Positions 3,534 through 58,571 are shown, numbered from the stretch's first letter. The stretch: 64,000 nucleotides of DNA from an uncultured Ignavibacteriota bacterium (GCA_903861125.1 CAIOTF010000003.1:13274-77273); one strand, 5' to 3'. Notes: a model not told the origin generated them from the letters alone. Translations and numbers: made by a program.

Positions 3534-3648
3534 AATTATTTTGTTTTGATAATTGAATGATGTACTGCGTTATGCACCAAGCATTCAAACGTCCGCACGA
3601 TTTATTTGCAGGCGAGGAATTTGGGAACAAAAAGAATCGGACCTTATA

Positions 3649-5544: not shown

Positions 5545-5578
5545 TCACCAATTTCCCGATGAGCACATTCCGACAATG

Positions 5579-7462: not shown

Positions 7463-7475
7463 CGACTCTCCGGCT

Positions 7476-8600: not shown

Positions 8601-8641
8601 AATGTAGGATGACCCAATGGGAATATGAGAGTGAATAGATT

Positions 8642-9355: not shown

Positions 9356-9441
9356 GGACTGCGTTTTGGTCCGGAGCGATGTCCGCTCTTTGGATGGACT
9401 ATTCCATAATGCTGGTTTTGATGTTGAAATGATCATACTCT

Positions 9442-10209: not shown

Positions 10210-11195
10210 TTCATCCCAACGTGTAATGTCATACGAAGAATGTTGCCAAGCCTGCCGTAATCGGCATAGGCAATATCAACAATCACCGGCATCGGTAATT
10301 GCGGATTAATACCGATACCAACGCTGTAGGACTCTTCGTCATAAAAGAACTTATAACCGCCCCGCAGCGCAATTGTATTGTTCCAGGAATACTCGGCGCC
10401 GACATTCACTTTTTCATTTCCGTCGTTTGGATGACGGGCTTCAATGGTTAGTGTCAACCGGTGCTCCGAAGTTGCATCGCCGATCAGTTCGCCCGCCAAG
10501 CCCAATTTAAACACCGCCGGCATTTTAAATTCGTCATTGATGAACTTTGCATTGGCACCGAAGTTCTGCATGGCTGCCGCCATTCTCAATGAACCGAGTC
10601 CGGTGTAATAGAGCACGCCCGCATCAAGAACAACATTGCTTGCGGAGTAACTATCGATCCGTTCCTGCACATATTTAAGCGTAGTGCCGAAAGAAAATTG
10701 ATCCGTGAGCATTTTGGAATATGTAACGCCGGCCGCCAGAGACTGTGCCTCGAATGTTCCAATAACGTCGAACACTTGTTTGTCCTGAGCGACCACTGTT
10801 CGCGGCATGGATCCGTAGTCAAAAAGCACAAGACCGACAGCGAACATACCGGCATCGGTTTTTACAGAATAGCTGGACGAATAATTTTTAATATCTGCGA
10901 TCCACGGCGCATAGGATGCAGTAAAAGAATGCTGGTACTCGCTGAATCCCAAAGAGGCAGGATTGTTGAAAACCGCCGAAGAGTTTTCGTCGGCCAACGC
11001 AAGACCGGATTCACCCAGGGATGCCTGCCGCGATGTAGCGGGAACCTCAAGAAAAACAAAACCGGCCGTTGCAGTTTTCTTAAATTCCTGTGCCGACACA
11101 CACATAGTATTTAGCAGGAAGAACACTAATGCCAATGTAAAAGTACGTCTTATACTACGTTGTTCCGGATGCAAGATTTTTATTAATGAATTCAT
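10206..11195 (-). CDS. PorV/PorQ-like outer-membrane barrel protein
   Basis: 329 aa with a signal peptide ending 'CVSAQE'. The N-terminal 'AGFVFLEVPATSRQASLGESGLALADENSSAVFNNPASLG' resembles the PorV/PorQ (UPF0164) family signature. Confidence 0.55.
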   Translation of the reverse strand: MNSLIKILHPEQRSIRRTFTLALVFFLLNTMCVSAQEFKKTATAGFVFLEVPATSRQASLGESGLALADENSSAVFNNPASLGFSEYQHSFTASYAPWIADIKNYSSSYSVKTDAGMFAVGLVLFDYGSMPRTVVAQDKQVFDVIGTFEAQSLAAGVTYSKMLTDQFSFGTTLKYVQERIDSYSASNVVLDAGVLYYTGLGSLRMAAAMQNFGANAKFINDEFKMPAVFKLGLAGELIGDATSEHRLTLTIEARHPNDGNEKVNVGAEYSWNNTIALRGGYKFFYDEESYSVGIGINPQLPMPVIVDIAYADYGRLGNILRMTLHVGMK

Positions 11196-11210
11196 AATTC
11201 CAATGTTGAT

Positions 11211-13280: not shown

Positions 13281-13307
13281 AGAATCATTACACACAATGA
13301 ACCACAA

Positions 13308-16300: not shown

Positions 16301-16313
16301 TAACTCTATTCAT
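13308..16313 (-). CDS. TonB-dependent receptor with N-terminal CarboxypepD_reg domain (SusC-like architecture)
   Basis: 1001 aa with a signal peptide. 'GNVTDGATKEPLIGVNVIIVGTNIGTVTDVNGRYSILNISPGRYHV' is CarboxypepD_reg-like. TonB-box-like 'QVIVVATKP'. Plug motif 'ITGGFSAEYGNAQAGVVKV'. Long beta-barrel region. Confidence 0.85.
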   Translation of the reverse strand: MNRVRLYTHLIFALFLSAQFIVLAQTSKLVGNVTDGATKEPLIGVNVIIVGTNIGTVTDVNGRYSILNISPGRYHVKASMLGYATVLQQNVDIFIDRTTTADFQLSDATIELNQVIVVATKPQVIRDRTATATTIESSQINSAPIEGLRGAMDLYAGFQKSASGEYSVRGSGSYELNFQINGVDQVTSNTSAPGEFGADKANNSWKFDVNPLGVQQMELITGGFSAEYGNAQAGVVKVAMKEGAPKLTGEFRVEYRPPGQYHYGQYLYDHSNYEWQKWGTLDKWMANRDNIAQELGFIPNGRYDYLLKNKTGADTALYNQIVDSEIAWAYQTWVKNHEPGDDNVLGVYDYRKFAYQRYMFGFGGPLGGDPNLLKFYFSGEYKRNPTRLPSPEKVQTMQNYILSVTYQPIQNNKIKLMGSYQNFLGGLWDGSDDIRWSGLNGSPPNPSRKYDINFDPVRSEQTIAQSINWVHTINAQSFLDIMVAHQQERYELPYIYLPSYSQIVDRLDSAGDVNGSVLRNGTWWESKYFTVLERVSTNWYQDSRTETYSFKTDYANQVTQTNLLKTGIAAHYYDMRNTGVYGSYQANSYVARNGFAEYYRAYPIDVAAYVQDKMEYSGMIANIGLRAEVYNFQSRVPKDKFYFLYPGTDGPTKSGNPETMDSETKFVFQPRLGVSFPVGVGTALRIQYGHFASMPTFSQALSNMTYQGWNGIGNPDLEPKKTINYEIGLQQAIGDEYRSDFVLYYNDRTSQIGSQTVAAFTGSRQHFVGFTNSNEMLNSYSTYSNNGFGSTIGFEATFETMGIDRWSYRLSYSLSQTTSGNFGANMIYPDNSRNYSTRNYTGEFLASWDRTHNFRSLVQYRWAAGEGPRIFGADILQNAVASMTYTAQSGTPYTYITDFSLKDAVYNRRYPIETNVDLNFSKNIVMGSVNIVMGIRVMNLFENKILTPPANSTALYDWVQRGVTIADAGSDPSRVDHIVASYAAYRNIPRQVFFTLGVGFN

Positions 16314-16468
16314 TACTGTTTTAAGGTATGATGCCGGTTATAGATAGGAATAGCCGGACAAAATATTAACATGACAGTCTCATGCAAAATACATCACGGT
16401 ATGCAGAGAACAATGTAATTGAGTATCTGTGCCAAAAAAAACTTTTGGATTCCTGCTCAAGTAAAATA

Positions 16469-17908
16469 TTACTTAAGCATCAACATCTTCTTTGTAATCT
16501 TGGATTCCGGTGTAATGATTGTGTAAAAATAAATGCCGCTGGGATTATTCATACCATTGAATACCTCAACGTGCTTTCCCGCACCGGTAAATCCTTCGGA
16601 CAACACGGTTATTTCTCTTCCGAGCACATCCGAAACAACTAATTTCACATACGAAGGTTTAGACAGCGTATACGAAATTAAAGTAGATGGATTGAACGGA
16701 TTGGGATAATTCTGGCCCAATTCAAAATTGTATATCCGTCCGTTTGTTTCGTTGACTCCAACCGTTAAACTTTTGAACCGGAAAACAGCGCGTGCATAGC
16801 GGTCTGCTGCATAGGCTAGACTCATTTCTTTGTTCAACACTACGTCGCACGGTCCGACCATTGGAGCACCATTCGGGTTAGCTACATCCATACTATTTTT
16901 ACTCGGAAGATCATAAAGCGCTTCGGCATTAACTCCGTCCACTTTGAATCCTTTTACCCAGCGGCGCGTTGAATCAACACCGGCCACCCATAAGATCCCT
17001 TTCCCGTCCACCGTGATACCATACGGAAAGGAATTGATAAAGGAGAGATATCCGTTAAAATCTGTTACACGGTTGCCGGTATAATCGATCGGCTGGACTT
17101 GCGTTCCTCCAGACCATACGGCGATTCCTCCGGTTTGCTGTGAACCGGAAATTGAATTTCGCGAAGTATAGAACAGACTTTTTTTATCATAATAACTTGC
17201 ACCGGGAACCAGTGCGACATCACGGATCACATCGAAAGCAAGCGATTGCGGACCTCCCGGTTCGGTCGCATTGCTGAAGACCGACGTATTGTTTGTATCC
17301 GGCGAATTATAAGAACCTCTGCTTGATTTTTTGAAGGTGTTCCCCAAATTATACCAGCGAAAACTTGTTCCGAAATCGACACCGGTTATGATCATAGAAT
17401 CTTTAGACATGTCCATACCGTTAATGTATGTTCCATACCCCGCTCCCGAAATGTTATAACCGAATCGCTGCACCGTTGACGTATCGGCATTCACATAATA
17501 ATAGAGAGCTGATACCGTATTGGTTTTTGTTTTCGGATACGGCTGGGTAGCAGTTGCGATAACATCATTGCCTAACACCGAAATTCCGCGCAACGCACCG
17601 ATATTTCCTTTTAACGTATCGGAATCTCCATTAACATCATAGTCGATGAATAATTTGAAAACCGTGTCTGCTTTGTTGGCGTAATAAATTGCGTTATGTG
17701 CTCTCGCATCATCAATTTTTGAGGAGATCACATAGATGCGTCCGTTTTGGTCGATGGTCATAAGATACGGTTTGGCAGCAATGCTGTCTTTCACGGGAAA
17801 CTTAACGGTGTTAAGGTAACTCCAGTCACTGTTTTGAGCCTGTGCAACGATCACAGAAAAAATCATTACAACGATCACGTAAAGAAAAAGTGTAGTTTTT
17901 TGTGTCAT
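16469..17908 (-). CDS. secreted beta-propeller-like protein with T9SS C-terminal domain
   Basis: The ATG at 17908 (GGAG 8 nt upstream) gives MTQKTTLFLYVIVVMIFSVIVAQAQ. The C-terminus is 'QNYPNPFNPSTLISYTL...GIYFYTI'. The longer track start at 18007 adds a non-signal extension. Confidence 0.65.
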   Translation of the reverse strand: MTQKTTLFLYVIVVMIFSVIVAQAQNSDWSYLNTVKFPVKDSIAAKPYLMTIDQNGRIYVISSKIDDARAHNAIYYANKADTVFKLFIDYDVNGDSDTLKGNIGALRGISVLGNDVIATATQPYPKTKTNTVSALYYYVNADTSTVQRFGYNISGAGYGTYINGMDMSKDSMIITGVDFGTSFRWYNLGNTFKKSSRGSYNSPDTNNTSVFSNATEPGGPQSLAFDVIRDVALVPGASYYDKKSLFYTSRNSISGSQQTGGIAVWSGGTQVQPIDYTGNRVTDFNGYLSFINSFPYGITVDGKGILWVAGVDSTRRWVKGFKVDGVNAEALYDLPSKNSMDVANPNGAPMVGPCDVVLNKEMSLAYAADRYARAVFRFKSLTVGVNETNGRIYNFELGQNYPNPFNPSTLISYTLSKPSYVKLVVSDVLGREITVLSEGFTGAGKHVEVFNGMNNPSGIYFYTIITPESKITKKMLMLK

Positions 17909-18042
17909 ACAATGCTCCGGATGTATTTGCTGATTGTTGAATAAAAATAAATTTCGATTGATCGTGAATGGTAATGTTCGTTCCGCTGATGATACCTTTT
18001 CTGCCAAATAACGTTTTAAAACTGCCGAATTTACATCAGAAG

Positions 18043-18120: not shown

Positions 18121-19596
18121 ATGGAAATGATCCAAGTAACATTATTGATCGCATTCTTCCTGATCATGGCCGTGTTGATGTTTCTGCGGAAACTTCCCGC
18201 AATCATCGCGTTGCCCATTATGGCAGTTCTCATTGCGCTGACAGGAGGAATTTCCCTCCCCGATACGGTCCGGTACGTGATTGGTACGGGTTCACTGAAG
18301 CTATCAACAGCCTATACCATCTCCATCTTTGGAAGCATGCTGAGCGTTCTGTTGCAAAAAACAGGGGTTGCGGAAAATTTCATAAAAAAAGGGGCGGAAC
18401 TTTCCGGCGATAATCCGTGGATCATTGCCGTTGTGATGCTTTCTCTTATCATCGTTCTTTTTAGCACACTCGGCGGACTGGGCGCGATCATCATGGTGGC
18501 AACTATTGTGCTTCCTATTATGTCGTCCGTTGGAATCGGACCGCTGACGACGGTCGGGATATTTTTGTTCGGATTGAGCATCGGCGGAATTTTGAATGTT
18601 GGTAACTGGGCCGTCTATATTTCGGTGATGGGCTTAACGGTCGATCAGATTCGTCCGTTCGCGCTGGTGATGTTCTGCATTTCATTCGCTGCCGCACTGG
18701 TCTACATCACCGTGCAATTATACCGAGACGGGAATAATTTGAACATAAAAAAAATAATTTCCCGAAATCTGCTGTTTTTGGCGTTGGCAGGAATCATTCT
18801 TTATTCGTACAACATGCTGTTGAACGAAGAAGCCCGAATCATGATCAACGAATCACTTTCCGGCATCGGCAGTATCCTTACATGGATGATCAGCGCAGGG
18901 ATTGTTCTGCTTTTTGTTGCCGCGTTCGTACGTTTGCTGCTGAAAAAAAATGAACATTCTCAGGAAGTACATTGGATAACGATATTCTCCCCCGCAATTC
19001 CTTTACTCCTGATCCTTCTATATAATATGGATTTTATCGCTTCGTTCGTGGTCGGTCTTATCTACACCTACATCGCTACATATAAAAAGGGAAGATTGAA
19101 CGTTTTTATCCAATCGATGTTCGAAGGGGGTGCGGTAGTGATGCCGGCCGTTGCACTGATGTTTGGCATCGGTATGCTTCTTGTTGCCATCATGGGACCC
19201 GGCACTCCCGTAGCAGCTTATCCGGACGGCTGGCCGGTTCTGCTGATCCTTAAACCGCTGATGATGAAGATTGTTCCTTCCAATCCGTTCGAATATGTTT
19301 TCATTTTTACGCTTGCCGCACCGCTTGCATTATATAGAGGGCCGTTAAATGTGTGGGGCATGGGATACGGATTAGCGGCAGTCTTTCTGGCAAGCGGCTT
19401 AAATCCCGGCGCTGTGATGGGACTGCTGCTCGGCGTCGGTCATATCCAGGGTGTCAGCGATCCAACAAACACGCAGAATGTCTGGCTCGCCAACGAAATG
19501 AGAATTGATGTGCAAAAAATTCTTTGGAATACTATTCCCTATACGTGGATCCTTGCATTGTTAGGATTGACCTGTTCTGCCATCATGTTCATGTAA
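18121..19596 (+). CDS. ion-transporter-superfamily permease (GntP/CitMHS-like)
   Basis: 491 aa with about 12 TM segments. Organisation resembles GntP-type carriers (N-terminal TM hairpin, 'GGLGAIIMVATIVLPIMSSVGIGPLT'). Substrate unknown. Confidence 0.5.
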   Translation: MEMIQVTLLIAFFLIMAVLMFLRKLPAIIALPIMAVLIALTGGISLPDTVRYVIGTGSLKLSTAYTISIFGSMLSVLLQKTGVAENFIKKGAELSGDNPWIIAVVMLSLIIVLFSTLGGLGAIIMVATIVLPIMSSVGIGPLTTVGIFLFGLSIGGILNVGNWAVYISVMGLTVDQIRPFALVMFCISFAAALVYITVQLYRDGNNLNIKKIISRNLLFLALAGIILYSYNMLLNEEARIMINESLSGIGSILTWMISAGIVLLFVAAFVRLLLKKNEHSQEVHWITIFSPAIPLLLILLYNMDFIASFVVGLIYTYIATYKKGRLNVFIQSMFEGGAVVMPAVALMFGIGMLLVAIMGPGTPVAAYPDGWPVLLILKPLMMKIVPSNPFEYVFIFTLAAPLALYRGPLNVWGMGYGLAAVFLASGLNPGAVMGLLLGVGHIQGVSDPTNTQNVWLANEMRIDVQKILWNTIPYTWILALLGLTCSAIMFM

Positions 19597-19611
19597 TTTC
19601 ACAGAAAAAGA

Positions 19612-21768
19612 ATGAAACGAAAAATTAAGATTGGAATTGATGTCGGCGGCACATTCACACACGCTGTAGCGATTGATATCGCTGATTTCGCGATCATCGG
19701 CAAAGCGTGTGTGCTTACCACTCATCAAGCTCAGGAAGGCGTTGCAAAAGGGGTTGTGGATTCGATGCATCAGCTTCTCGAAGCATCGGCGATCGATCCC
19801 GGCGAGGTTATTCTGATCGCTCATTCCACAACTCAGGCAACAAATGCATTGCTCGAAGGAGATGTTGCAACGGTCGGAATTATCGGCATGGGAAAAGGTC
19901 TAGAAGGACGCCGGGCAAAAAGCGAGACCAATTTGCGGAACATCGAACTTGCTCCGGGAAAATTTCTCCATACACATTTTCATTTCATCGACACAGGAAC
20001 GAAGATCACCGAAGCGATGGTGACCGAAGCGGTGCAGAAAGTAACCGCGTCCGGCGCAACCGTGATCGTTGCATCCGAAGCATTCGGCGTTGATAATACG
20101 GCGAACGAAGAGTTTGTTGTTCGCATTGCGGAATCGATGGGTTTCAAGGCGACCGCAGCAAGTTCGATCTCAAAACTGTACGGACTGCGCGTAAGAACAA
20201 GAACCGCCGTAATCAATGCGAGCATGCTTCCCAAAATGCTGGAGACCGCAATCATGACCGAGGAAGCCGTACGGAAGAGCGGCATCAACGCTCCGCTGAT
20301 GGTGATGCGGTCCGACGGCGGCATCATGGATATCAAAGAAATGCATAAGCGGCCAATCCTTACAATGCTTTCGGGACCTGCGGCCGGCGTTACCGCAGCC
20401 ATGATGTATGCTAAAGTTTCGGACGGTGTATTCCTTGAGGTCGGCGGAACGTCAACGGATATCTCCATCATCAAGAACGGAAAACCGCAAATAAAGAGTG
20501 CACAGATCGGCGGCAACCGTTTGTATGTTCATACGCTTGATGTACGTACATTAGGGATCGCCGGCGGATCGCTGGTCCGTTTCAGCGATAATACGATCGT
20601 CGATGTCGGTCCGAGAAGCGCGCATATTGCAAAGCTGCATTACATTGCATTCACATCAAATCTTGATTTCCATAATGCAGGCATCGAAAAAATACAACCG
20701 GTAAGCGATGATCCGGATGATTATCTTGCGGTATCGCTTAATGGGCATCGCAATAAATTCGCACTGACGCCGACAGAAGCTTCAAACTATTTAGGACTTG
20801 TGAAAGTTGCCGGACATGGAAAAGCGAATTCCCGCGCTATCGAGGAATTCTTCGGATCATTTTCACGGATGATCCATAAACAGCCAAAGGAAATTGCTGA
20901 ACAGATCCTTTCTATTGCCGCTGATAAGATCAAACCGGTCATCCATCAGTTGGCGCGGGAATACAAACTCGACATGGACATGATGCAGTTCGTCGGCGGC
21001 GGCGGCGGCGCATCGGCAATTGTTCCGTTCACGGCAAATTCCATGAATGTTCCTCATATGATCGCCGATAATTCGGAAGTGATCTCCGCCATCGGCGCAG
21101 CGCTCGGAATGATCAGGGATTCCGTCGAAAAGAACATCATTAATCCGACCGAATCCGAAATTATTTCGTTGCGACAGGAAGCGGTGAATTCCGTGATCGG
21201 AATGGGAGCCGTTCCGGATTCCATCGAAGTGAGCATTGAGATAGACAGCAAAAACAAAAAAGTGATCGCCTCGGCGATGGGTACAAGCGAGTTGAGAACG
21301 AAGGACATTGATATTCAGAAGTTAAGCGAAGACAAACTGATCACGATCTGCGCCGCATCCCTTCGGACGGATAAGGACAATGTGTCAATTGCGGGACGGA
21401 CATCGTTCCTCTACGCGGTTGTTTCCACAGATATCCGGAAGAAATTCTTCGGTTTGGTGAACGAACAAAGCCAGCAATTGCGGGTGATCGATAAAGAAGG
21501 GACGATAAAACTGCAGATCAAGGACTGCATCGTTGATTCAGTGCAGCACGGAGCTGTAAAATCGAAGATCAAAGAGATGATCGAAACACTCACGACATTC
21601 GGCGATGCCGGCGCATTGGTACCGAACATTTATCTGCTGACCTCGGCAAAAGTCGTCGATCTCACCGGCCTGATTAAAGAATCACAGATCATGGCGTTGG
21701 TCGATCTGGAAATTTCAAAAGCAATGCCCGACGAAGAGATCGTGGTGATTGCCGCGCCAAATAAATAA
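19612..21768 (+). CDS. hydantoinase/oxoprolinase A-family (HyuA-like, ASKHA-fold) protein
   Basis: 718 aa. '[14 protein letters not shown]' and '[13 protein letters not shown]' match the two ASKHA phosphate motifs of HyuA-type proteins. No HyuB-like partner is present in the window. Confidence 0.6.
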
Positions 21769-21779
21769 GAGACCGCAGC

Positions 21780-22616
21780 GTGATAAACAATACGACATAT
21801 GACTATATCGTTTTCGGGACTACTATTCCGGGAATCATTTTTGCGGTCAAAAAATCGCTCGCCGGATATTCCGTTCTACTGACAAATATGTTCGGTTTCC
21901 CCGGCGGCAGTATTACTGAACAGTTGAACTGTTACCAGAATGTCGATGAAACTCAATTACAGGGGTTGGCACAAGAGATCTATCGTTCCATAGCACCCGA
22001 AAATTTTGAACGAACAATCGTCAATCCTGAGTCGGTAAAATTCGTTCTTCAGCAAACAGTGGAGAATTCATCCGTTCATCTTTACTTTCACGTTACGCCG
22101 AAAAAGATTGTAATGAATGGTGACGGAATATTCGAAGTTTCCCTTCTAGCAAAAGAAGGCAATACGGCCGTAACCGGAAAAAAAATAGTCGATGCTTCGG
22201 AAGATTTTTATGGAGCCGTACTGCTGAACAGAAAAAGGATAATACAAGAACGATGTGTCAACCTATTCATTTCGCGTCCATTGAACGATAAATTTTTGCC
22301 GTTTGGAAAAATCGCAAAAACAGTGAAACTGTCCGACGGAAGATATTGGATCTCTTTGAGACTGAATTCGCAGGATGAGCTTTTTGCGGAGAATGAAACA
22401 CACGATCTGCTGAATACTTTTCGGGAAATTCTGGAAGATTCTCACAGCAGGATCCAAGTGCTCCCTCTCGGCGCTCAGACTATCTACGGATTGGAAAGAG
22501 GAGATAATTTCAAAAATACATTCTCAACTATTGATGATATTCTCGGTTCTTCCATGAAACCGTCCGACCAATTTCAAAGGGGATCGGTATTAGAATCGGC
22601 TCTTAATAAATTTTAG
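21780..22616 (+). CDS. FAD_oxidored-like protein with degenerate dinucleotide-binding motif
   Basis: 278 aa, GTG start. The N-terminus 'YDYIVFGTTIPGIIFAVKKSLAGYSVLLTNMFGFPGGSIT' parallels 23334..24644, but GxGxxG is replaced by GTTIPG. Confidence 0.4.
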   Translation: MINNTTYDYIVFGTTIPGIIFAVKKSLAGYSVLLTNMFGFPGGSITEQLNCYQNVDETQLQGLAQEIYRSIAPENFERTIVNPESVKFVLQQTVENSSVHLYFHVTPKKIVMNGDGIFEVSLLAKEGNTAVTGKKIVDASEDFYGAVLLNRKRIIQERCVNLFISRPLNDKFLPFGKIAKTVKLSDGRYWISLRLNSQDELFAENETHDLLNTFREILEDSHSRIQVLPLGAQTIYGLERGDNFKNTFSTIDDILGSSMKPSDQFQRGSVLESALNKF

Positions 22617-22643
22617 AATATCTTTACGACGACAAAAATAACT

Positions 22644-23327
22644 ATGAATGATGTTTTTCAAAAATTAAAAAATGGACTGATCGTCTCTTGCCAGGCGGAA
22701 GGAAACTCCCCTTTTAATACGCCGGAAGGTGTAACACTGTTTGCGCAGGCAGCGGTGCAGGGAGGTGCAGCAGGCATTCGTTCCGAAGGAATTGAAAAAA
22801 CAAAGATGATCATTAAGTCGGTTAAACTACCGGTGATCGGTTTGATCAAGTCATCATTTGACGACGGTTATGTCCGTATCACCGGATCTTTCTCCGATGT
22901 TGAAAACCTGCTGTCCATCGGCGCAACGATCATCGCCATCGACGGTACGTTCCGCAAACGTGAGAATCTTTCCGGACCGGATTTTATTGCGAATGTTAAA
23001 CAGCGTTATAATTGTATTATCATGGCCGATATTGACGGCGAACAGGAAGCACTCGCATGCGTTGCGGCCGGCGCAGACTGCGTATCAACAACACTCAGCG
23101 GATACACGCCGGAGACCAAGAACAAAGATCACTATCCCGATGTTCAGCTTCTTTCTGCATTGGCAAAAAAATTGAGCGTTCCTGTTATCGCAGAAGGAAG
23201 AATCAATACGCCCGAAATGGCGGCTAAGATGAAATCGCATGGTGCATGGTGCGTTGTCGTCGGTTCTGCCATAACACGGCCGACGGAAATCACGAAATGG
23301 TTCGTTCAATCCTTAAAGAACAGTTAA
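22644..23327 (+). CDS. nanE: N-acetylmannosamine-6-phosphate 2-epimerase
   Basis: 227 aa. 'GLIVSCQAEGNSPFNTPEGVTLFAQAAVQGGAAGIRSEGIEKTKMIIKSVKLPVIGLIK' is collinear with NanE-family TIM barrels. Confidence 0.8.
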   Translation: MNDVFQKLKNGLIVSCQAEGNSPFNTPEGVTLFAQAAVQGGAAGIRSEGIEKTKMIIKSVKLPVIGLIKSSFDDGYVRITGSFSDVENLLSIGATIIAIDGTFRKRENLSGPDFIANVKQRYNCIIMADIDGEQEALACVAAGADCVSTTLSGYTPETKNKDHYPDVQLLSALAKKLSVPVIAEGRINTPEMAAKMKSHGAWCVVVGSAITRPTEITKWFVQSLKNS

Positions 23328-23333
23328 TACCGC

Positions 23334-24644
23334 ATGGCATTACTTTCAGAATATGATGTGATCGTTGTCGGTGCAGGTATCGCCGGCATCGCTGCTGCCG
23401 TGAAAGCCGGACGCTCTGGCGTTTCGGTTCTGCTCGTCGAACAGTATGGTTTTGTCGGCGGCATGTCCACTGCAGGAATGGTCTCTCCGTTCATGAAACA
23501 TCAGGTTCAGGGTGAAGTGCTGGTTCGCGGCGTGTTTGAAGATATTGAACGGGAAATGCGGAAACAGCACGGGATGATCGATAATGGTTTTTTTGCCAAT
23601 TCGTTCAGATCGGCATCATTTCATCTCCTGAAAGAATCCGGATGCACCTTGTTGCTGCATAGTATTATCTCCGGCGTTACGAAAAACAATACGACAATCG
23701 AATCTATTTCCATTTTCACGTCCGGCAGAGAAATAACAATCAAAGGAAAGGTCTTCATAGACACATCCGGAGATGCGCAACTTTTATTTCTTGGCAATTT
23801 GCCGTGGGTGAAAGGTGATGAAAAAACGGGATTACTCCAGGCATTGACATTGTTTTTCCGTATGGGCAATATCGATCTTGTGAAAGCGACAGAGTATGCG
23901 AAGAACAATAAGAATGAATTCTTCGATTGGATGGATTATAATTTCAATCTGACCAAAATTATTTCGGTTGCCGGCTATTTCAGCTCCGTGAAAAAAGCGA
24001 TTCAGGAACAGCGACTTTCTCCCGAAGTTCAGTATATCTTCTTTACCACCCTTCCGGAATCAGGGGAAGGATCGTTTAATACATCAAACATTCTTGAGCT
24101 GGACGGTTCATCATCCATCGATCTGACAAAAGCGGAACTGGCCGGAAGGAAACAAGTACATCAGGTGGTTGCATTGCTGAAGAATGAGATACCGGGATTC
24201 GAACATTCGTATCTGATCGAAACGGCCCCGCAGGTGGGAGTACGTGAAACACGCCGGGCTGTTGGCGACTATGCTGTCACCGGCGACGATATTAAGCACG
24301 GAAATAAATTCCGTGATGCGGTCGCGCGGGGATGTTACGGCATTGATATCCACGGACAGAAAGATGAAAGCAGCCGGATGGAACATCTTGCCGAAGGGGA
24401 TTATTACGAGATTCCTCTAAGAGCCTTATTGGTACAAAATTCAACTAATGTACTCGCCGCGGGAAGGTGTATTTCTTCCACGCGTGAAGGACACAGTGCA
24501 TTAAGAATTCAACCGACATCTTCTGCCACCGGCGAGGCATGCGGTGCGTTAGCGGCGCTATCGGTGAAATCTCACCGAGCAGTCAGAGAGATCGAATACA
24601 ACACAGTTCGGGATCTCATTTCACACAATATTTCCAAAAAGTAA
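23334..24644 (+). CDS. FAD-dependent oxidoreductase (FAD_oxidored/PF12831-like)
   Basis: 436 aa with an intact Rossmann motif: 'YDVIVVGAGIAGIAAAVKAGRSGVSVLLVEQYGFVGGMSTAGMV'. Confidence 0.7.
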   Translation: MALLSEYDVIVVGAGIAGIAAAVKAGRSGVSVLLVEQYGFVGGMSTAGMVSPFMKHQVQGEVLVRGVFEDIEREMRKQHGMIDNGFFANSFRSASFHLLKESGCTLLLHSIISGVTKNNTTIESISIFTSGREITIKGKVFIDTSGDAQLLFLGNLPWVKGDEKTGLLQALTLFFRMGNIDLVKATEYAKNNKNEFFDWMDYNFNLTKIISVAGYFSSVKKAIQEQRLSPEVQYIFFTTLPESGEGSFNTSNILELDGSSSIDLTKAELAGRKQVHQVVALLKNEIPGFEHSYLIETAPQVGVRETRRAVGDYAVTGDDIKHGNKFRDAVARGCYGIDIHGQKDESSRMEHLAEGDYYEIPLRALLVQNSTNVLAAGRCISSTREGHSALRIQPTSSATGEACGALAALSVKSHRAVREIEYNTVRDLISHNISKK

Positions 24645-24656
24645 ATTTTATCGTTA

Positions 24657-26066
24657 ATGAATATAATATTCGGCACTGATGGATGGCGCGGTTTGCTTGA
24701 GAGCGAAGTGAATGAACACTCGGTCTCGCTTGTTGCTCAGGCATTCTCCGATTACGCTAAGAACCGTTCATCGTCGCCATCCATCGTCATCGGATATGAC
24801 GGAAGACGGCGATCGAAAGAATTTGCCCATCTTTTTGCTTCAATCCTCGATGGTAATTCAATCAGATATTTTTTATCGGATACAGTGATCCCCACTCCGG
24901 TTGTTTCGTATTTCGTAAAAGCACGGTCGCTGGACTTCGGCGTAATGCTGACCGCATCGCATAATCCGCCGGAATACAACGGTATCAAATTCAAAGCGGC
25001 CTATGGCGGTCCGTTCTTCACGGAAGAGACACACAAGGTCGAAGCGCTGATTGGTCGTTCACCGATACAGCGATCCGCACGTCAACTGGTTACTCAAGAT
25101 CTTCTCACTCTTTATACGGAACACCTCCGGAAGATCGTTGATTTCCAGACGATCGCGAAAGGCAATATTTCGGCGGTGATCGATTCCATGAGTGGAGCCG
25201 GCGGAACCATCATTGAGGATTTATTGTCGCGCTTTGGAACTACTGCAAAAACAATTTTTGAAATACCGAATGATACGTTTTCAGGCAGATTAGCTGAACC
25301 GATAGAGAAAAATCTTATCCCCTTGCAGCAGGAATTGCAGAGGAATAATTTTTCCCTCGGCGTTGCTACGGACGGAGATGCCGACCGGTTAGGCGTTTTA
25401 CTGGATACGGGAGAGTGGCTCAGCAGTCAGGAAACGATACTTCTTCTTGCGGATTTTCTTAAGAACGGCAAAAATTTCCCCGGCGACATCGTCAAAACCT
25501 CTTCCGTGACGAACCTTCTTCAGACACATTTTGGTTCCGCTGATTGCACGGTTCACGATGTACAGGTTGGATTCAAATATATCTGCGAAAAGATGATGGA
25601 AACGGATGCAGCTTTCGGTGCGGAAGAAAGCGGCGGATATGGTTTTAAAGGACACATCCCGGAACGTGACGGTATTCTCTCCGCACTGTTATTTATTGAG
25701 ATGCTTGCTTCCTCCCCTTTTAAGCGGCTGAGCGAATACGTTGATGCCAAAAGAAAACAGTTTGGCCGGATATTCTATGATCGGATAGATCACCCGTATC
25801 ATCATGACGATCGGAATGATAAATTACCCGCAATGGAGAAAGATCCACCTGCGGAGATTTCACAATTTTCAGTGAAGAATATTTTCAAATTCTACAGCAG
25901 CCGTGGAATTGTCAATGGATTAAAGTTCAATCTCGAAGGAAAAACCCGATGGCTGCTGTTGCGTTCATCCGAAACGGAACCACTTATTCGAATTTATGCA
26001 GAGGGCGAATCGGAAAAAGAAGTTCAACAAATCCTCATATCAGGAATTGCACTTATTGCTAATTAA
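24657..26066 (+). CDS. alpha-D-phosphohexomutase (PGM/PMM family)
   Basis: 'FGTDGWRG', active-site loop 'TASHNPPEYNGIKF', metal loop 'GVATDGDADR', sugar loop 'GAEESGGYGF'. Confidence 0.85.
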   Translation: MNIIFGTDGWRGLLESEVNEHSVSLVAQAFSDYAKNRSSSPSIVIGYDGRRRSKEFAHLFASILDGNSIRYFLSDTVIPTPVVSYFVKARSLDFGVMLTASHNPPEYNGIKFKAAYGGPFFTEETHKVEALIGRSPIQRSARQLVTQDLLTLYTEHLRKIVDFQTIAKGNISAVIDSMSGAGGTIIEDLLSRFGTTAKTIFEIPNDTFSGRLAEPIEKNLIPLQQELQRNNFSLGVATDGDADRLGVLLDTGEWLSSQETILLLADFLKNGKNFPGDIVKTSSVTNLLQTHFGSADCTVHDVQVGFKYICEKMMETDAAFGAEESGGYGFKGHIPERDGILSALLFIEMLASSPFKRLSEYVDAKRKQFGRIFYDRIDHPYHHDDRNDKLPAMEKDPPAEISQFSVKNIFKFYSSRGIVNGLKFNLEGKTRWLLLRSSETEPLIRIYAEGESEKEVQQILISGIALIAN

Positions 26067-26075
26067 ACAGGGACA

Positions 26076-27446
26076 ATGAAGAAGATAATCGATAAACATA
26101 ACGCAGCTGAACTATTAAAGAATCTCTCCGACGAATTTGCCGTCGTAAAGAATCCGGAATACATCCATCCCGAATTCGAACTGTATCCCCTTGCGCCGAA
26201 ACTGACTTCCCCGCTGGATTCTCTTTCCGCTGCGGTGATGGACATGGACGGCACAACAACGACAACTGAAGAACTCTGCATCCATTCGCTCGAGTTTATG
26301 ATAAGGAAGATGTCCGGGAAGATGACGACAGAGTCATGGAAGGGACTTGATCACACCCTTGATTACCCGCATATCATCGGGAACAGCACAACCAAACATG
26401 TGGAATATCTTATCACCAAATATCATTCTTTACTTATTGATGAGAATATTAAAGGATCATATTTCTACGCAGCAATATGGACCCTTCTTTCCGGCAACGA
26501 CAGCAAACGAAAAGAAGAAGTCATCATCAATCTCAATAATTTGAATCTTTCCGGCATCCTCGGTGATGGATTTTATAAGGATCTCTCGGCAAAGAATACT
26601 TCCCTTGCAGATCTGGAACATGAAATATCGGAATATTTTCTCCAGCGCTTTTCCGACAGATTCCCTTCGTTGTTCAAAACAGACCTTGTTAAGATTGCTA
26701 TCGATATTTATTACCAACGGTACCATGAGATATTGCAGCGCATTAAAAGGGGCGAAAGTAAGAATATTTCCATCGAACTTTTCAATGACCCGAACAAACG
26801 ATTGATCCAGCCGATGCCGGGTGTATTATTTCTTCTCTGTCTTTTGAAAGGATGGCTCGGAAACGAAGCGGAAAATCTTGCCGACAGACTTATTGAAGAT
26901 TACCACGTAAAATCAGGAAAACAATTTGACATCCTTGATCCGGCAGAAATAAAAAAGAAAATTAAATCATTAGGCCTTTATTTCGAAAAACATCCCGCGA
27001 AAATTGCTATCGTCACATCGTCGATCTTTTATGAGGCGGATATCGTCATAGGCGAGGTCTTCAATGTTTTAACAACGCAACTGAATGACCTCGCGATCTC
27101 ATCCGCACGGAAAGAACTGATACGGCAAAAACTGTCCGGTTACAGGAATGTCTATGACGCGTTTATTACCGCAAGCGACTCTACCGAGATCCGCCTGAAA
27201 CCGCACCGTGATCTCTACTGTATTGCCCTTCATCAATTGAATGTTCCTGCTGCAGACTTTAAGAACGTAATCGGTTTCGAGGACAGCGAAAGCGGAACGA
27301 TTGCCATCCGCGCCGCCGGTATTGGCCGGTGCGTTGCCGTTCCTTTTGCTCAAACGAAGGGCCATAATTTTGATGCGGCTGCGGTCGTTTGCACAGGGGG
27401 TGTTCCCGAGATCGTTCTTTCATACAATCTTTTTTTCAAATCGTAA
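26076..27446 (+). CDS. HAD-IA family hydrolase with unusually large (~250 aa) cap insertion
   Basis: Motif I 'DMDGTTTTTE', motif II 'IAIVTSS', motif III 'RLKPHRDLY', motif IV 'GFEDSESGTIAIRAAG'. About 250 residues separate motifs I and II. Confidence 0.6.
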   Translation: MKKIIDKHNAAELLKNLSDEFAVVKNPEYIHPEFELYPLAPKLTSPLDSLSAAVMDMDGTTTTTEELCIHSLEFMIRKMSGKMTTESWKGLDHTLDYPHIIGNSTTKHVEYLITKYHSLLIDENIKGSYFYAAIWTLLSGNDSKRKEEVIINLNNLNLSGILGDGFYKDLSAKNTSLADLEHEISEYFLQRFSDRFPSLFKTDLVKIAIDIYYQRYHEILQRIKRGESKNISIELFNDPNKRLIQPMPGVLFLLCLLKGWLGNEAENLADRLIEDYHVKSGKQFDILDPAEIKKKIKSLGLYFEKHPAKIAIVTSSIFYEADIVIGEVFNVLTTQLNDLAISSARKELIRQKLSGYRNVYDAFITASDSTEIRLKPHRDLYCIALHQLNVPAADFKNVIGFEDSESGTIAIRAAGIGRCVAVPFAQTKGHNFDAAAVVCTGGVPEIVLSYNLFFKS

Positions 27447-27469
27447 CTTCTCCGTATATCGTTAGAACT

Positions 27470-30244: not shown

Positions 30245-30259
30245 TTTTCAGACTGTCCA

Positions 30260-32671: not shown

Positions 32672-32679
32672 AAATCCTT

Positions 32680-34886: not shown

Positions 34887-35121
34887 CAATAATCTCCTTC
34901 CCACCGGATATGTGCATTTGACCTAACAATATTCATATAATTTTTCTTTACCATTCTGCAATAAAAGACTAACTTTCATCGCTATTCTATTAAAATATAC
35001 ATTGGTGTTGCGGCTCGCTGTGAATAAACCCCGATTGGGGAATGACCGCTAACGTCTGAAATCTCTAGGATGTGTTGTTTGTTTTATACAATTACACTGT
35101 GCTGCTTTGACTATAGAAAGT

Positions 35122-38247: not shown

Positions 38248-38266
38248 GGAAAGCAGTATCCGCACA

Positions 38267-46537: not shown

Positions 46538-46574
46538 AATTTTAGAAAATATTAAACCTGCAGGGAACGCCCGC

Positions 46575-58525: not shown

Positions 58526-58571
58526 AGAAAATCTAAAAAATATATTTATGACTATCGTTTACTGCAAGGGT

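What the first reader, a model, noticed from the sequence alone, without database searches (positions are those of the whole stretch)
18121..24644. Orphan HyuA-like ATPase, a degenerate/intact FAD_oxidored pair and NanE behind a permease: possible uncharacterised amino-sugar route
Seen: five tightly spaced genes (gaps of 6-27 nt) encode an IT-superfamily permease, a 718-aa HyuA-like ASKHA protein, a 278-aa FAD_oxidored-like protein, NanE and a 436-aa FAD_oxidored protein. The HyuA-like protein has no HyuB partner. The 278-aa protein has GTTIPG in place of GxGxxG, whereas the 436-aa protein keeps an intact GAGIAG. Established: HyuA/HyuB hydantoinase/oxoprolinase enzymes act as two-component ATP-dependent lactam hydrolases. 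NanE interconverts ManNAc-6-P and GlcNAc-6-P and normally accompanies NanA/NanK, which are absent here. PF12831-type flavoproteins recur in polysaccharide loci without a defined role. Inference: the HyuA-like protein could be a novel kinase or ATP-dependent ring-opening enzyme, and the flavoprotein pair an oxidative step on an imported amino-sugar derivative.
Basis: partly seen in the sequence, partly recalled or inferred. Interest (0 to 1): 0.65.

Follow-up and report, generated by a model that had tools for sequence, protein, structure and literature searches.

The report
Orphan HyuA-like ATPase amino-sugar locus
A lake bacterium carries a widely conserved but uncharacterised gene set, built around a membrane permease and a partner-less hydantoinase-type ATPase beside the amino-sugar enzyme NanE, that probably feeds an unusual amino sugar into metabolism by chemistry nobody has yet described.

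Summary
All five ORFs lie at the stated coordinates with 6-27 nt gaps. GTTIPG and GAGIAG are as described, and there is no HyuB. The block is the first half of a ten-gene operon (18121-34329) that continues with a PGM-like mutase, a large-cap HAD protein, GH38, a ChBP-like GH94 and a secreted NAGPA phosphodiester glycosidase. It faces a divergent TonB-receptor/T9SS/GHL10/DUF5009 operon.

At least 506 stretches in a one-genome-per-species collection encode a relative of the HyuA-like protein. In 37 related loci with full flanks, the permease accompanies it in 95% and NanE in 84%. FAD pair, PGM/GH94 and HAD/GH38 are optional modules. Permease + HyuA-like + PF12831 flavoprotein recurs at about 41% identity in Selenomonas, haloarchaea and a metagenome contig. 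A HyuB probe finds nothing in 86 sequences.

Best reading (about 0.4): an anion-type permease imports a charged ManNAc-type sugar, and the ATPase converts it to ManNAc-6-P for NanE. Main rival (about 0.3): the ATPase works on the transporter itself, because related clades pair it with, or fuse it to, FTR1 iron permeases. No literature describes this family. The function remains inferred.

The parts
18121..19596 (+). 491-aa polytopic permease with an IT-superfamily (anion-carrier) type fold. It is the invariant upstream partner of the HyuA-like gene.
   Evidence: No Pfam or NCBIfam hit. Some sources name the family citrate transporter or gluconate symporter-like. The AF2 model is weak (pLDDT 55.8), but its top 28 Foldseek hits are all DASS, TRAP-QM, Pho90, ArsB, AbgT or DiT1 carriers. 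Present in 95% of full-flank loci, and directly upstream on the same strand in 60 of 71 loci.
19612..21768 (+). 718-aa stand-alone HyuA-family ASKHA ATPase (called HYU here).
   Evidence: Pfam Hydant_A_N + Hydantoinase_A. The Foldseek top hits are full-length acetone carboxylase beta, N-methylhydantoinase, acetophenone carboxylase and caprolactamase alpha at 15-17% identity. DVGGT, GGTSTD and GGGGG motifs are conserved. No HyuB is nearby. The family comprises 424 clusters at 50% identity with E<=1e-30.
21780..22616 (+). 278-aa degenerate PF12831-like protein, probably a non-FAD-binding partner subunit.
   Evidence: Only profile positions 1-146 of 416 match. GxGxxG is absent in 38 of 40 orthologues, and the beta2 acidic residue is replaced in 40 of 40, mostly by Asn. 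It evolves about twice as fast as its neighbours. It is present in every full-flank locus that has the 436-aa protein.
22644..23327 (+). NanE, ManNAc-6-P 2-epimerase.
   Evidence: PF04131 at 206 bits and NF002231 at 269.5 bits against a cut-off of 189. E-values of 1e-47 to solved NanE structures, with the IGxIK lysine conserved. Present in 84% of full-flank loci.
23334..24644 (+). 436-aa PF12831 flavoprotein with intact GAGIAG and the beta2 Glu.
   Evidence: PF12831 at 350 bits over the full length. Both features are intact in 31 of 31 orthologues. Homologues sit next to permease + HYU in Selenomonas (28%, E 6e-50), haloarchaea and L098.
24657..26066 (+). PGM/PMM-family hexose-phosphate mutase, closest to archaeal GlmM.
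   Evidence: All four PGM_PMM domains are present and TIGR03990 scores 275 bits, below its cut-off. It co-occurs with GH94 in 88% of GH94 loci.
26076..27446 (+). 456-aa HAD phosphatase or mutase with a cap insertion of about 250 aa.
   Evidence: HAD_2 and Hydrolase hits cover residues 335-418. Motif I is DMDGT at residues 55-59. Every full-flank locus with GH38 also has it.
27389..30244 (+). GH38 alpha-mannosidase, MngB-like and probably cytoplasmic. The start codon is uncertain because the ORF overlaps the previous gene.
   Evidence: GH38 N, middle, C and C2 domains are present and NF007331 scores 465 bits, below its cut-off.
30260..32671 (+). GH94 disaccharide phosphorylase with a chitobiose-phosphorylase-like +1 site.
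   Evidence: E-values of 1e-142 to CBP and 7e-135 to ChBP. Leu and Cys occupy the positions of ChBP F627/V631 (Glu and Tyr in CBP) in 16 of 16 orthologues, and DWND is conserved.
32680..34329 (+). Secreted NAGPA-type phosphodiester glycosidase with Golvesin_C and a T9SS sorting tail.
   Evidence: Pfam NAGPA, Golvesin_C and Por_Secre_tail.
2112..18007 (-). Divergent uptake and secreted-enzyme operon: DUF5009 membrane acetyltransferase (2112-3533), three GHL10 enzymes (3649-8600, two with Golvesin_C and T9SS tails), two unknowns, a PorV/FadL-like protein, a 698-aa unknown, a TonB-dependent receptor (13308-16313) and a T9SS-tailed 512-aa protein.
   Evidence: Pfam. The TBDR set is syntenic in the Ignavibacteria-type loci. 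DUF5009 + GHL10 sit directly next to permease + HYU in the Calditrichota-, Marinimicrobia- and KSB1-type loci.
35107..38899 (+). Reg_prop/Y_Y_Y histidine kinase and LuxR-type response regulator, the probable locus regulator.
   Evidence: Pfam. Histidine-kinase homologues flank the locus in L008, L015 and L016; response-regulator homologues in L015 and L016.

Best explanation
The five genes are the promoter-proximal half of a ten-gene cytoplasmic operon in a lake Ignavibacteria-type genome. Together with a divergent outer-membrane and secreted-enzyme operon, it forms a utilisation locus for an amino-sugar-containing envelope-type glycan, probably of bacterial origin.

Proposed mechanism:
1. Secreted GHL10 and NAGPA enzymes fragment the polymer. 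The DUF5009 membrane acetyltransferase re-N-acetylates free amines.
2. The IT-type permease imports a negatively charged ManNAc-type sugar or disaccharide.
3. The stand-alone HyuA-family ATPase spends ATP to turn the cargo into ManNAc-6-P. This is either plain 6-phosphorylation or phosphorylation coupled to opening or removal of an acidic substituent.
4. NanE epimerises ManNAc-6-P to GlcNAc-6-P.
5. Where present, GH94 phosphorolyses a beta-linked HexNAc disaccharide, and the PGM-like mutase converts the HexNAc-1-P to the 6-phosphate.
6. GH38 and the HAD protein deal with alpha-mannosyl or phospho decorations.
7. The 436-aa flavoprotein, with its degenerate 278-aa partner, carries out an accessory oxidation.

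Shown here: gene content, conservation, linkage, motif status and absence of HyuB. Inferred: every catalytic assignment for HYU, the flavoproteins, the permease cargo and the polymer.
For: The operon extends through PGM, HAD, GH38, GH94 and NAGPA. Conservation: at least 506 matched stretches in a one-genome-per-species collection encode a relative, the same block occurs in L002 and L004, and Hymenobacter has a minimal set with NagB/PIG-L. Linkage in 37 full-flank loci: permease 95%, NanE 84%, GH94 to PGM 88%, GH94 to NanE 100%. Minimal PERM-HYU-NanE loci have no other kinase or ATP-using enzyme. NanE is orthodox, so a ManNAc-6-P source is needed. HYU keeps the ASKHA ATP motifs, including GGTSTD as in canonical HyuA. 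The permease fold class and source names point to anionic cargo. GH94 has a ChBP-like +1 pocket. N-acetyltransferases (DUF5009, Antibiotic_NAT) recur in the loci. A GHL10 member degrades peptidoglycan (PMC6016235, PMC5765458). Permease + HYU + PF12831 are co-inherited in Selenomonas, haloarchaea and the L098 metagenome contig, which argues for a substrate-specific pathway. In clades outside this one, HYU is translationally coupled to a small HExxH protein, which would suit HyuA-type activation followed by hydrolysis.
Against: No member of this family has been characterised, and the literature searches found nothing. Known HyuA chemistry is phosphorylation of a carbonyl oxygen together with a HyuB partner, not of a sugar hydroxyl. 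A paralogous clade is adjacent to, or fused with, FTR1 iron permeases that keep their REXXE motifs, and iron cannot be phosphorylated. Another clade follows a DUF92 membrane protein. The enzymes downstream of the pair vary widely, and Sericytochromatia-type loci have the pair alone. NanE is absent from the Selenomonas, Streptomyces and haloarchaeal cassettes. The permease model has low confidence. A ROK kinase 5 kb downstream could supply the kinase in this particular genome.
Confidence: 0.4

Rival explanations
1. HYU does not modify the cargo. It is a cytoplasmic ATPase that energises, gates or otherwise acts on the membrane protein encoded just upstream, turning a secondary-carrier-type permease into an ATP-coupled uptake system. 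This would be functionally comparable to ArsA with the IT-superfamily carrier ArsB. NanE and the other enzymes would simply metabolise whatever is imported.
For: The membrane-protein-then-HYU order held in all but one of the contexts examined (Streptomyces L089 has the IT transporter just downstream instead): the IT permease in FCB-type loci, Selenomonas, haloarchaea and L098; FTR1 in Deinococcus and L095; DUF92 in L094; and predicted membrane proteins with about 6 and 3 TM-like segments in L097. In P0347 an FTR1 domain with REGLE and REGFE motifs is fused to HYU. Sericytochromatia-type loci have the pair alone. Downstream partners vary by clade. Pkinase-HYU fusions suggest a regulatory or conformational module.
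Against: I know of no ASKHA or HyuA-family protein that energises a transporter, and all characterised relatives are small-molecule-activating enzymes. The FTR1-linked clade has GGTSTN where this clade and canonical HyuA have GGTSTD, so it may have changed function. In Hymenobacter the permease lies about 9 kb from HYU on the other strand. The model does not explain the co-inherited PF12831 enzyme or the coupled HExxH protein. It also leaves ManNAc-6-P formation without an enzyme in the minimal loci.
Confidence: 0.3
2. HYU performs true HyuA-type chemistry, which is ATP-dependent activation of an amide, lactam or ketone carbonyl on an amino-sugar derivative. Hydrolysis would be done by HYU itself or by a non-HyuB partner. 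Candidate reactions include opening a muramic-lactam-type ring or removing an unusual N-acyl group, after which N-acetyltransferases re-acetylate the free amine.
For: The model has a full-length HyuA fold. In related clades a small HExxH zincin-like protein overlaps the HYU stop codon, giving an activation-plus-hydrolase pair analogous to HyuA/HyuB. N-acetyltransferases (DUF5009, Antibiotic_NAT) recur in the loci, as expected if a free amine is produced. The GHL10 enzyme Cwp19 acts on peptidoglycan.
Against: The HExxH partner is absent from the window and all 85 close loci, and no locus protein carries HExxH. There is no amidase, MurQ or NagA in the window. ATP-dependent deacylation is unnecessary for ordinary N-acetyl groups. 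It does not explain directly how a 6-phosphate arises for NanE.
Confidence: 0.15
3. HYU is the alpha subunit of a classical hydantoinase or 5-oxoprolinase whose HyuB subunit is encoded elsewhere, and its position next to NanE is incidental.
For: Pfam places it in Hydantoinase_A, and NCBIfam gives weak caprolactamase-alpha similarity at 83 bits. Whole genomes could not be searched for HyuB.
Against: The scores are far below the equivalog cut-offs (83 against 1000), and identity to solved HyuA subunits is only 15-17%. There were zero HyuB hits within about 10 kb in 86 sequences, while canonical HyuA and HyuB are adjacent in the control locus. Linkage to the permease and NanE is strong and phylogenetically broad.
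Confidence: 0.03
4. The operon is biosynthetic and not catabolic, for example supplying ManNAc or mannose precursors for a surface polymer, with NanE running from GlcNAc-6-P towards ManNAc-6-P.
For: NanE and the PGM-like mutase are reversible. A MurB-like gene lies next to the pair in 11 loci.
Against: There are no glycosyltransferases, nucleotidyltransferases or flippases in the conserved set. The partners are a permease, glycoside hydrolases, a phosphorylase, a TonB receptor and T9SS-secreted hydrolases. The MurB adjacency is limited to loci that also share other flanking genes.
Confidence: 0.05

Closest known systems
HyuA/HyuB-type ATP-dependent enzymes (N-methylhydantoinase, 5-oxoprolinase, caprolactamase CapAB, acetone and acetophenone carboxylases)
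   Same: The same two Pfam domains, the same full-length fold by Foldseek (E 1e-18 to 1e-24), and the same ASKHA ATP motifs including GGTSTD.
   Different: No HyuB partner within about 10 kb in 86 sequences. Only 15-17% identity in the Foldseek structural alignments (26% by BLASTP to Agrobacterium HyuA). Always downstream of a membrane protein. Its partners are a PF12831 flavoprotein, NanE, or in other clades a small HExxH protein. The substrate is unknown.
Canonical sialic-acid/ManNAc branch (NanT-NanA-NanK-NanE)
   Same: Permease + ATP-using enzyme + NanE in one operon. The NanE is orthodox, and the expected end product is GlcNAc-6-P.
   Different: No NanA and no ROK-type NanK. The transporter is neither NanT/MFS nor a complete TRAP system. 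A 718-aa HyuA-like protein occupies the position of the kinase.
AnmK / levoglucosan kinase (ASKHA enzymes that couple ring opening to 6-phosphorylation)
   Same: This is a working analogy only: an ASKHA ATPase acting after import, next to enzymes that need a 6-phosphate sugar. A GHL10 relative produces 1,6-anhydro ends.
   Different: It belongs to a different ASKHA family, and no sequence or fold match to AnmK ranked in the top 50 Foldseek hits. There is no MurQ in the loci.
GH94 chitobiose phosphorylase pathway (ChBP plus a phospho-sugar mutase)
   Same: GH94 with the DWND motif and small hydrophobic residues at the ChBP F627/V631 positions, paired with a GlmM-like mutase.
   Different: It is about equally distant from CBP and ChBP, so it forms its own subfamily. 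It always co-occurs with NanE, so ManNAc may be part of the disaccharide. The activity is untested.
ArsA-ArsB (ATPase coupled to an IT-superfamily carrier)
   Same: An IT-superfamily-type membrane carrier encoded next to a soluble ATPase. In one paralogous protein (P0347) a permease domain is fused directly to the HyuA-like ATPase.
   Different: From memory, ArsA is a P-loop ATPase while HYU is ASKHA, so they are not homologous. No interaction has been shown. This is an analogy for the rival model only.
Bacteroidota polysaccharide utilisation loci (SusC/SusD PULs)
   Same: A TonB-dependent receptor with CarboxypepD_reg and Plug domains, secreted glycoside hydrolases, a sensor kinase and cytoplasmic finishing enzymes in one locus.
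   Different: No SusD-family protein was detected, as the 698-aa neighbour has no Pfam hit. The secreted enzymes carry T9SS tails, and the host is Ignavibacteria-like.

Membership tests
HyuA subunit of hydantoinase/oxoprolinase-type enzymes | Hydant_A_N + Hydantoinase_A domains and the full-length HyuA fold | tested here: met
   Pfam scores of 73.6 and 203.5 bits. The Foldseek top 7 hits are all HyuA-type subunits, with TM about 0.5 and E 1e-18 to 1e-24.
HyuA subunit of hydantoinase/oxoprolinase-type enzymes | ASKHA ATP-binding motifs | tested here: met
   DVGGTFT, GGTSTD and GGGGG are present in the window protein; their core residues are at least 95% conserved across 71 representatives, and the FTR1-linked clade has GGTSTN.
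HyuA subunit of hydantoinase/oxoprolinase-type enzymes | A HyuB (Hydantoinase_B) partner, adjacent or fused | tested here: not met
   The Agrobacterium HyuB probe gave 0 tblastn hits at E<=10 in the window and 85 loci, while the HyuA probe hit all 86. The control locus has HyuA and HyuB adjacent. Whole genomes were not searchable.
HyuA subunit of hydantoinase/oxoprolinase-type enzymes | Reaches the curated equivalog score of a named enzyme | tested here: not met
   Caprolactamase alpha scored 82.8 against a cut-off of 1000, and ApcA scored 31 against 1250.
HyuA subunit of hydantoinase/oxoprolinase-type enzymes | ATP-dependent turnover of a lactam, hydantoin or ketone | not testable with these tools
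   This needs an enzyme assay.
NanE (ManNAc-6-P 2-epimerase) | PF04131 and NF002231 above their curated cut-offs | tested here: met
   206 bits against 27, and 269.5 bits against 189.
NanE (ManNAc-6-P 2-epimerase) | Catalytic lysine in the IGxIK strand (Lys66 in the C. perfringens enzyme, recalled from memory) | tested here: met
   Window 'lpviglik' aligns with 4UTT 'lpiigiik'.
NanE (ManNAc-6-P 2-epimerase) | Accompanied by NanA and NanK (the canonical nan cluster) | tested here: not met
   Neither was found among the window ORFs I annotated or in the recurrent clusters of the 85 loci.
PF12831 FAD-dependent oxidoreductase (436-aa protein) | Full-length profile match, GxGxxG, and an acidic residue at the end of beta2 | tested here: met
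   350 bits over profile positions 1-414 of 416. GAGIAG and VEQY are present, and both features hold in 31 of 31 orthologues.
PF12831 FAD-dependent oxidoreductase (278-aa protein) | Full-length profile match, GxGxxG, and an acidic residue at the end of beta2 | tested here: not met
   Only profile positions 1-146 of 416 match, at 58 bits. GxGxxG is present in 2 of 40 orthologues and the acidic residue in 0 of 40. It is related to the family but is not expected to bind FAD in the canonical way.
Ion-transporter (IT) superfamily permease | Sequence-profile membership in a named IT family (GntP, CitMHS, DASS, DctM and others) | tested here: not met
   No Pfam or NCBIfam hit even at E 10. A family profile found no PDB hit.
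Ion-transporter (IT) superfamily permease | Elevator-type IT fold | tested here: inconclusive
   The model has pLDDT 55.8. The top 28 Foldseek hits are all IT-superfamily anion carriers, with TM 0.34-0.51 and E from 1e-3 to 0.3. Source names agree.
GH94 glycoside phosphorylase | GH94 supersandwich and catalytic domains, with the DWND motif I recall as carrying the catalytic Asp | tested here: met
   243 and 393 bits. 'gdwndtld' aligns with CBP 'adwndcln' and ChBP 'adwndcln' and is conserved in 16 of 16 orthologues.
SusC/SusD polysaccharide utilisation locus | An adjacent SusC-like and SusD-like pair | tested here: not met
   A TonB receptor is present, but the downstream 698-aa protein has no SusD or any other Pfam hit.

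The most novel reading that the evidence does not exclude
The stand-alone HyuA-family ATPase is the obligate cytoplasmic partner of carrier-type membrane proteins: an IT-superfamily permease here, and FTR1 iron permeases (including a natural fusion) in sister clades. This would define a previously unrecognised class of ATP-coupled uptake or cargo-trapping system found in Bacteria and Archaea. In the enzyme version of the same idea, it is a ring-opening kinase that converts an acidic ManNAc derivative, such as the 4,6-pyruvyl-ketal ManNAc of SLH-binding cell-wall polymers, directly into ManNAc-6-P.
Probability: 0.25. Interest if true: 0.85.

Novelty: new variant of a known kind. Interest (0 to 1): 0.62.

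Why it matters
The permease + orphan HyuA-like pair occurs in hundreds of genomes across many phylum-level labels, including Ignavibacteriota, Bacteroidota, Calditrichota, Marinimicrobia, KSB1, Sericytochromatia, Negativicutes, Actinomycetota and haloarchaea. My literature searches found no description of it.

In lake and sediment bacteria it sits at the centre of loci that look built to consume amino-sugar polymers, possibly from other microbes' envelopes, which are a large and poorly mapped carbon and nitrogen flux.

Working out its reaction would do one of two things. It would either add a new ATP-dependent step to amino-sugar catabolism, as a non-orthologous replacement for NanK or a new ring- or amide-opening enzyme, or it would reveal a new way of coupling ATP to carrier-type transporters. 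It would also give a first functional handle on PF12831 flavoproteins and their degenerate partner subunits, on GHL10 and NAGPA enzymes in bacteria, and on a new GH94 specificity.

Tried and rejected
- Xanthan-locus analogy (GH38 + GH94 + esterase). The apparent 'NanE' hits in those papers were Paenibacillus nanensis, and the locus has no PL8, GH88 or GH5.
- Oxidised-chitin (GlcNAc1A) route. As I recall, the known Ong pathway uses a deacetylase, a deaminase and KDG enzymes, none of which is here.
- Withers GH94 library paper. It gave nothing on this clade or on ManNAc substrates.
- Peptidoglycan/MurNAc route. It is attractive because of GHL10 (Cwp19) and DUF5009, but there is no MurQ, amidase or AnmK in the window or the recurrent clusters. 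I kept it only as a sub-option.
- MurB adjacency in 11 loci. I judged it to be clade synteny because those loci also share other flanking genes.
- ROK345 as the missing kinase. It is closest to a glucokinase and is absent from all 37 full-flank loci.
- Sigma-70 promoter and terminator scans. Promoter-like sites were fewer than in the shuffles and terminator-like sites only slightly more, so neither was informative.
- Public RNA data. Only DNA metagenome runs hold the sequence.
- Permease profile against PDB sequences. No hits.
- Literature on PF12831 and DUF4127. Nothing functional was found.
- HExxH partner in this clade. Searched for and absent.
- The C-terminal half of the 278-aa protein as a homologue of the small HExxH proteins. 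No similarity.

Full report
**1. Observation.**
Pfam confirms the main assignments:
- The 718-aa protein has Hydant_A_N + Hydantoinase_A.
- NanE scores 206 bits, and NCBIfam NF002231 gives 269.5 bits against a cut-off of 189.
- The 436-aa protein is a full-length PF12831 match at 350 bits.
- The 278-aa protein matches only the first third of PF12831 (58 bits, profile 1-146 of 416).

The permease has no Pfam or NCBIfam family even at E = 10.

**2. The unit is larger than the finding.**
The same strand continues without a break through five more genes:
- a PGM/PMM mutase closest to archaeal GlmM (24657-26066);
- a 456-aa HAD protein (26076-27446) with motif I DMDGT at residues 55-59 and a cap of about 250 aa;
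- a GH38 enzyme (27389-30244);
- a GH94 phosphorylase (30260-32671);
- a secreted NAGPA phosphodiester glycosidase with Golvesin_C and a T9SS tail (32680-34329).

A Reg_prop/Y_Y_Y histidine kinase and a LuxR-type regulator follow. Upstream and divergent lie a T9SS-tailed protein, a TonB-dependent receptor, a 698-aa unknown, a PorV/FadL-like protein, two unknowns, three GHL10 enzymes (two with Golvesin_C and T9SS tails) and a DUF5009 membrane protein. DUF5009 is discussed in a paper on the TmAT acyltransferase superfamily that includes HGSNAT (PMC12423673; I did not read beyond the listing). None of the other window ORFs I annotated is HyuB, NanA, MurQ, NagA or NagB.

**3. Conservation.**
The HyuA-like protein (HYU) has thousands of close relatives that stay near 718 aa. 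At least 506 matched stretches in the one-genome-per-species collection encode a relative. The best match is an uncultured Ignavibacteriae lake MAG at 98% identity, which fits the lake-water metagenome runs that hold the sequence. I compared all window locus proteins with 85 loci by tblastn and also clustered every ORF without reference to the window. The two approaches agree.

In the 37 loci with at least 6 kb upstream and 8 kb downstream:

| Partner | Share of loci |
|---|---|
| Permease | 95% |
| NanE | 84% |
| PGM-like mutase | 59% |
| Short FAD-like protein | 57% |
| HAD-like protein | 57% |
| Long FAD protein | 51% |
| GH38 | 51% |
| GH94 | 46% |

Further linkage from the same analysis:
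- Every GH38 locus has the HAD-like gene, and every locus with the long FAD protein has the short one.
- 88% of GH94 loci have PGM, and all of them have NanE.
- The permease lies directly upstream on the same strand in 60 of 71 loci, with a median gap of 33 nt.

Gene maps show three designs:
- **Minimal:** PERM-HYU-NanE.
- **With secreted enzyme:** PERM-HYU-DUF5009-GHL10, in Calditrichota-, Marinimicrobia- and KSB1-type loci.
- **Long form:** the Ignavibacteria arrangement seen in this window.

Other observations:
- Hymenobacter has HYU-PGM-GH94 with the permease, NanE and a NagB/PIG-L fusion nearby.
- Sericytochromatia and Blackallbacteria MAGs have only the pair.
- Recurrent neighbours absent from this window are an AAC(3)-type N-acetyltransferase, a 454-aa unknown, ROK-HTH regulators and MurB. 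I judged MurB to be clade synteny.

These 80 loci are the closest of the 506 or more, so the percentages describe the near family only.

**4. No HyuB.**
A canonical control locus on an Agrobacterium plasmid has HyuA and HyuB adjacent. Its HyuB gave no tblastn hit at E <= 10 in the window or the 85 loci, whereas its HyuA hit all 86 sequences. Whole genomes could not be searched, so a distant HyuB is not formally excluded.

**5. HYU itself.**
The AF2 model (mean pLDDT 75.5) matches full-length HyuA-type subunits and nothing else at full length. These are acetone carboxylase beta, N-methylhydantoinase, acetophenone carboxylase alpha and gamma, and caprolactamase alpha, all at 15-17% identity. The ATP motifs are conserved across 71 family representatives. 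The family is sizeable, with 424 clusters at 50% identity scoring E <= 1e-30. None of my literature searches found a paper on a stand-alone member.

**6. Deep partners.**
Annotated replicons of cultured organisms carry family members at 34-41% identity.
- **Selenomonas ruminantium:** a self-contained trio of a PF12831 flavoprotein (28% to the 436-aa protein, E 6e-50), a transporter (33% to the permease, E 8e-65) and HYU.
- **Three haloarchaea:** IT-type transporter, HYU, a protein of about 171 aa whose start overlaps the HYU stop, a PF12831 protein of about 660 aa (300 bits) and an IclR regulator. Two of the three also have an AGE-family (GlcNAc 2-epimerase family) gene nearby.
- **A metagenome contig (L098):** an NhaC-like IT permease, HYU, a 186-aa protein, DUF4127 and PF12831.
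- **Streptomyces:** HYU, a small ORF, then the transporter.

So permease + HYU + PF12831 is an old, co-inherited set. NanE is the link specific to the FCB-type (Fibrobacterota-Chlorobiota-Bacteroidota group) loci.

**7. Small downstream partners.**
The small proteins that follow HYU in the haloarchaea, L093, L097, L098 and Streptomyces are homologous to one another. They share an HExxH motif and a second motif of the form E-x-x-A-(H/N)-x-F, with marginal Zincin_1 hits. An ATP-dependent activator coupled to a small metallohydrolase would be a natural replacement for HyuA/HyuB. This partner is absent from the window and all 85 close loci, and no locus protein carries HExxH.

**8. A complication: the FTR1-linked clade.**
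In Deinococcus and in L095, HYU follows an FTR1 iron permease and precedes a small TM/coiled-coil protein. In P0347 the FTR1 domain, with intact REGLE and REGFE motifs, is fused to HYU. In L094 a DUF92 membrane protein precedes HYU. In L097 two predicted membrane proteins lie upstream. Pkinase-HYU fusions also exist. Iron cannot be a phosphoryl acceptor, so at least that clade does something other than modify its cargo. Its phosphate-2 motif is GGTSTN, whereas this clade and canonical HyuA have GGTSTD, so a change of function is possible.

**9. The flavoprotein pair.**
The long protein keeps GxGxxG and the beta2 Glu in 31 of 31 orthologues. The short protein has GxGxxG in only 2 of 40 and the acidic residue in 0 of 40, where it is mostly Asn. 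It does keep the GF(P)GG motif. The two share only 24% identity over about 126 residues. The short protein diverges about twice as fast as its neighbours (33% identity in L002 against 54-75% for the others) and has no fused forms. This points to an ancient, maintained, probably non-FAD-binding partner subunit and not a decaying pseudogene. Its chemistry is unknown. PDB sequence hits cover only the Rossmann N-terminus, and the literature on PF12831 has nothing functional.

**10. Other clues to the substrate.**
- NanE is orthodox. It scores E 1e-47 against solved NanE structures and the IGxIK lysine is conserved. ManNAc-6-P must therefore be produced somewhere.
- GH94 is about equally distant from cellobiose and chitobiose phosphorylases. 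It has Leu and Cys where ChBP has F627/V631 and where, as I recall, CBP has the glucose-binding Glu and Tyr. This holds in 16 of 16 orthologues, so an N-acetylated sugar at the +1 site is plausible.
- Some sources name the permease family citrate transporter or gluconate symporter-like. Its weak model (pLDDT 55.8) hits only IT-superfamily anion carriers, so the cargo is probably anionic.
- The one characterised GHL10 protein, Cwp19, cleaves peptidoglycan slowly with lytic transglycosylase and muramidase outcomes. Its authors suggest it may really act on a cell-wall glycopolymer precursor (PMC6016235, PMC5765458).
- NAGPA, DUF5009 and the AAC(3)-type acetyltransferase fit phosphodiester-linked, partly de-N-acetylated amino-sugar polymers.
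- One anionic ManNAc derivative is 4,6-pyruvyl-ketal ManNAc of SLH-binding secondary cell-wall polymers, whose repeat in P. alvei is Pyr-beta-ManNAc-1,4-beta-GlcNAc. Its CsaB-type biosynthesis is concentrated in Firmicutes and Cyanobacteria (PMC6801904). I found no described degradative route. This remains a hypothesis.

**11. Verdict.**
This is a real, widely conserved and uncharacterised amino-sugar-linked cassette. However, the unit is about 32 kb, the core is permease + HYU, and the role of HYU is unresolved.

My estimates for HYU:
- About 0.4: a cargo-converting ATP-dependent enzyme that supplies ManNAc-6-P to NanE.
- About 0.3: a transporter-coupled ATPase.
- About 0.15: HyuA-type amide or lactam activation.
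- About 0.03: a classical hydantoinase or oxoprolinase.

The remainder covers the biosynthetic reading (about 0.05) and possibilities I have not listed.

It is best filed as a new variant of a glycan or amino-sugar utilisation locus, built around a new sub-family of the HyuA superfamily. It fails the defining HyuB-partner test, so it should not be annotated as a hydantoinase or oxoprolinase.

Noticed in passing
window 56562-62912 (- strand): A separate sugar locus. It contains a 1008-aa protein matching GH123_N end to end (1507 bits), a DUF5077 + DUF3472 protein, a GHMP galactokinase-like kinase, and a 288-aa distant sugar-1-P nucleotidyltransferase relative. This could be a HexNAc salvage set.
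   Followed up: partly
window 42626-48806 (- strand): A T9SS-secreted arylsulfotransferase (ASST) with a CBM4_9 domain lies next to a GH5 and a SulP sulfate permease fused to STAS and cNMP-binding domains. This is an unusual pairing of sulfotransfer and glycan binding.
   Followed up: no
window 3649-7462 and 32680-34329: The Golvesin_C domain occurs in three different T9SS-secreted enzymes of the locus (two GHL10 proteins and the NAGPA protein). This suggests a shared substrate-binding module.
   Followed up: no
P0347; L090 7784-11049; L095 4755-8148: In one clade, HyuA-like proteins are adjacent to, or fused with, FTR1 iron permeases that keep both REXXE motifs. A small TM/coiled-coil protein follows them.
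   Followed up: partly
P0308, P0390: Ser/Thr protein kinase domains are fused N-terminally to HyuA-like domains that share 44-49% identity with the window protein over the matched region.
   Followed up: no
L087 11133-11648; L091 12136-12657; L092 12133-12648; L097 5125-5664; L098 8105-8665; L093 2183-2602; L089 11118-11720: A family of small HExxH proteins (about 140-200 aa) is translationally coupled to the 3' end of HyuA-like genes in haloarchaea, Streptomyces and metagenome contigs. It may be a HyuB-replacing hydrolase.
   Followed up: partly
L009 (labelled Synechococcus sp. UW140 MAG); L004/L005 (labelled Bacillota MAG): These contigs carry the complete Ignavibacteria-type locus, including T9SS and TonB-receptor genes in L009, at 70-81% identity. 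This suggests binning contamination or mislabelled MAGs.
   Followed up: no
window 8642-13307 (- strand); L002 58-6719: A conserved outer-membrane set of a TonB receptor, a 698-aa unknown, a PorV/FadL-like protein and a 255-aa unknown has no SusD. It may be an alternative glycan import complex in Ignavibacteria.
   Followed up: no
L031, L034, L041, L049, L058, L060, L063, L069, L074, L075, L085: A MurB-like gene lies directly upstream and divergent from the permease in 11 loci. This is probably inherited synteny, but a link to cell-wall sugar recycling is not excluded.
   Followed up: partly
L098 9325-10770; L004 13168-14532: DUF4127 (in L098) and a 454-aa protein with no Pfam hit (7 close loci, often next to the AAC(3)-type N-acetyltransferase) are recurrent unknowns in these cassettes. 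BLASTP found no similarity between them.
   Followed up: partly
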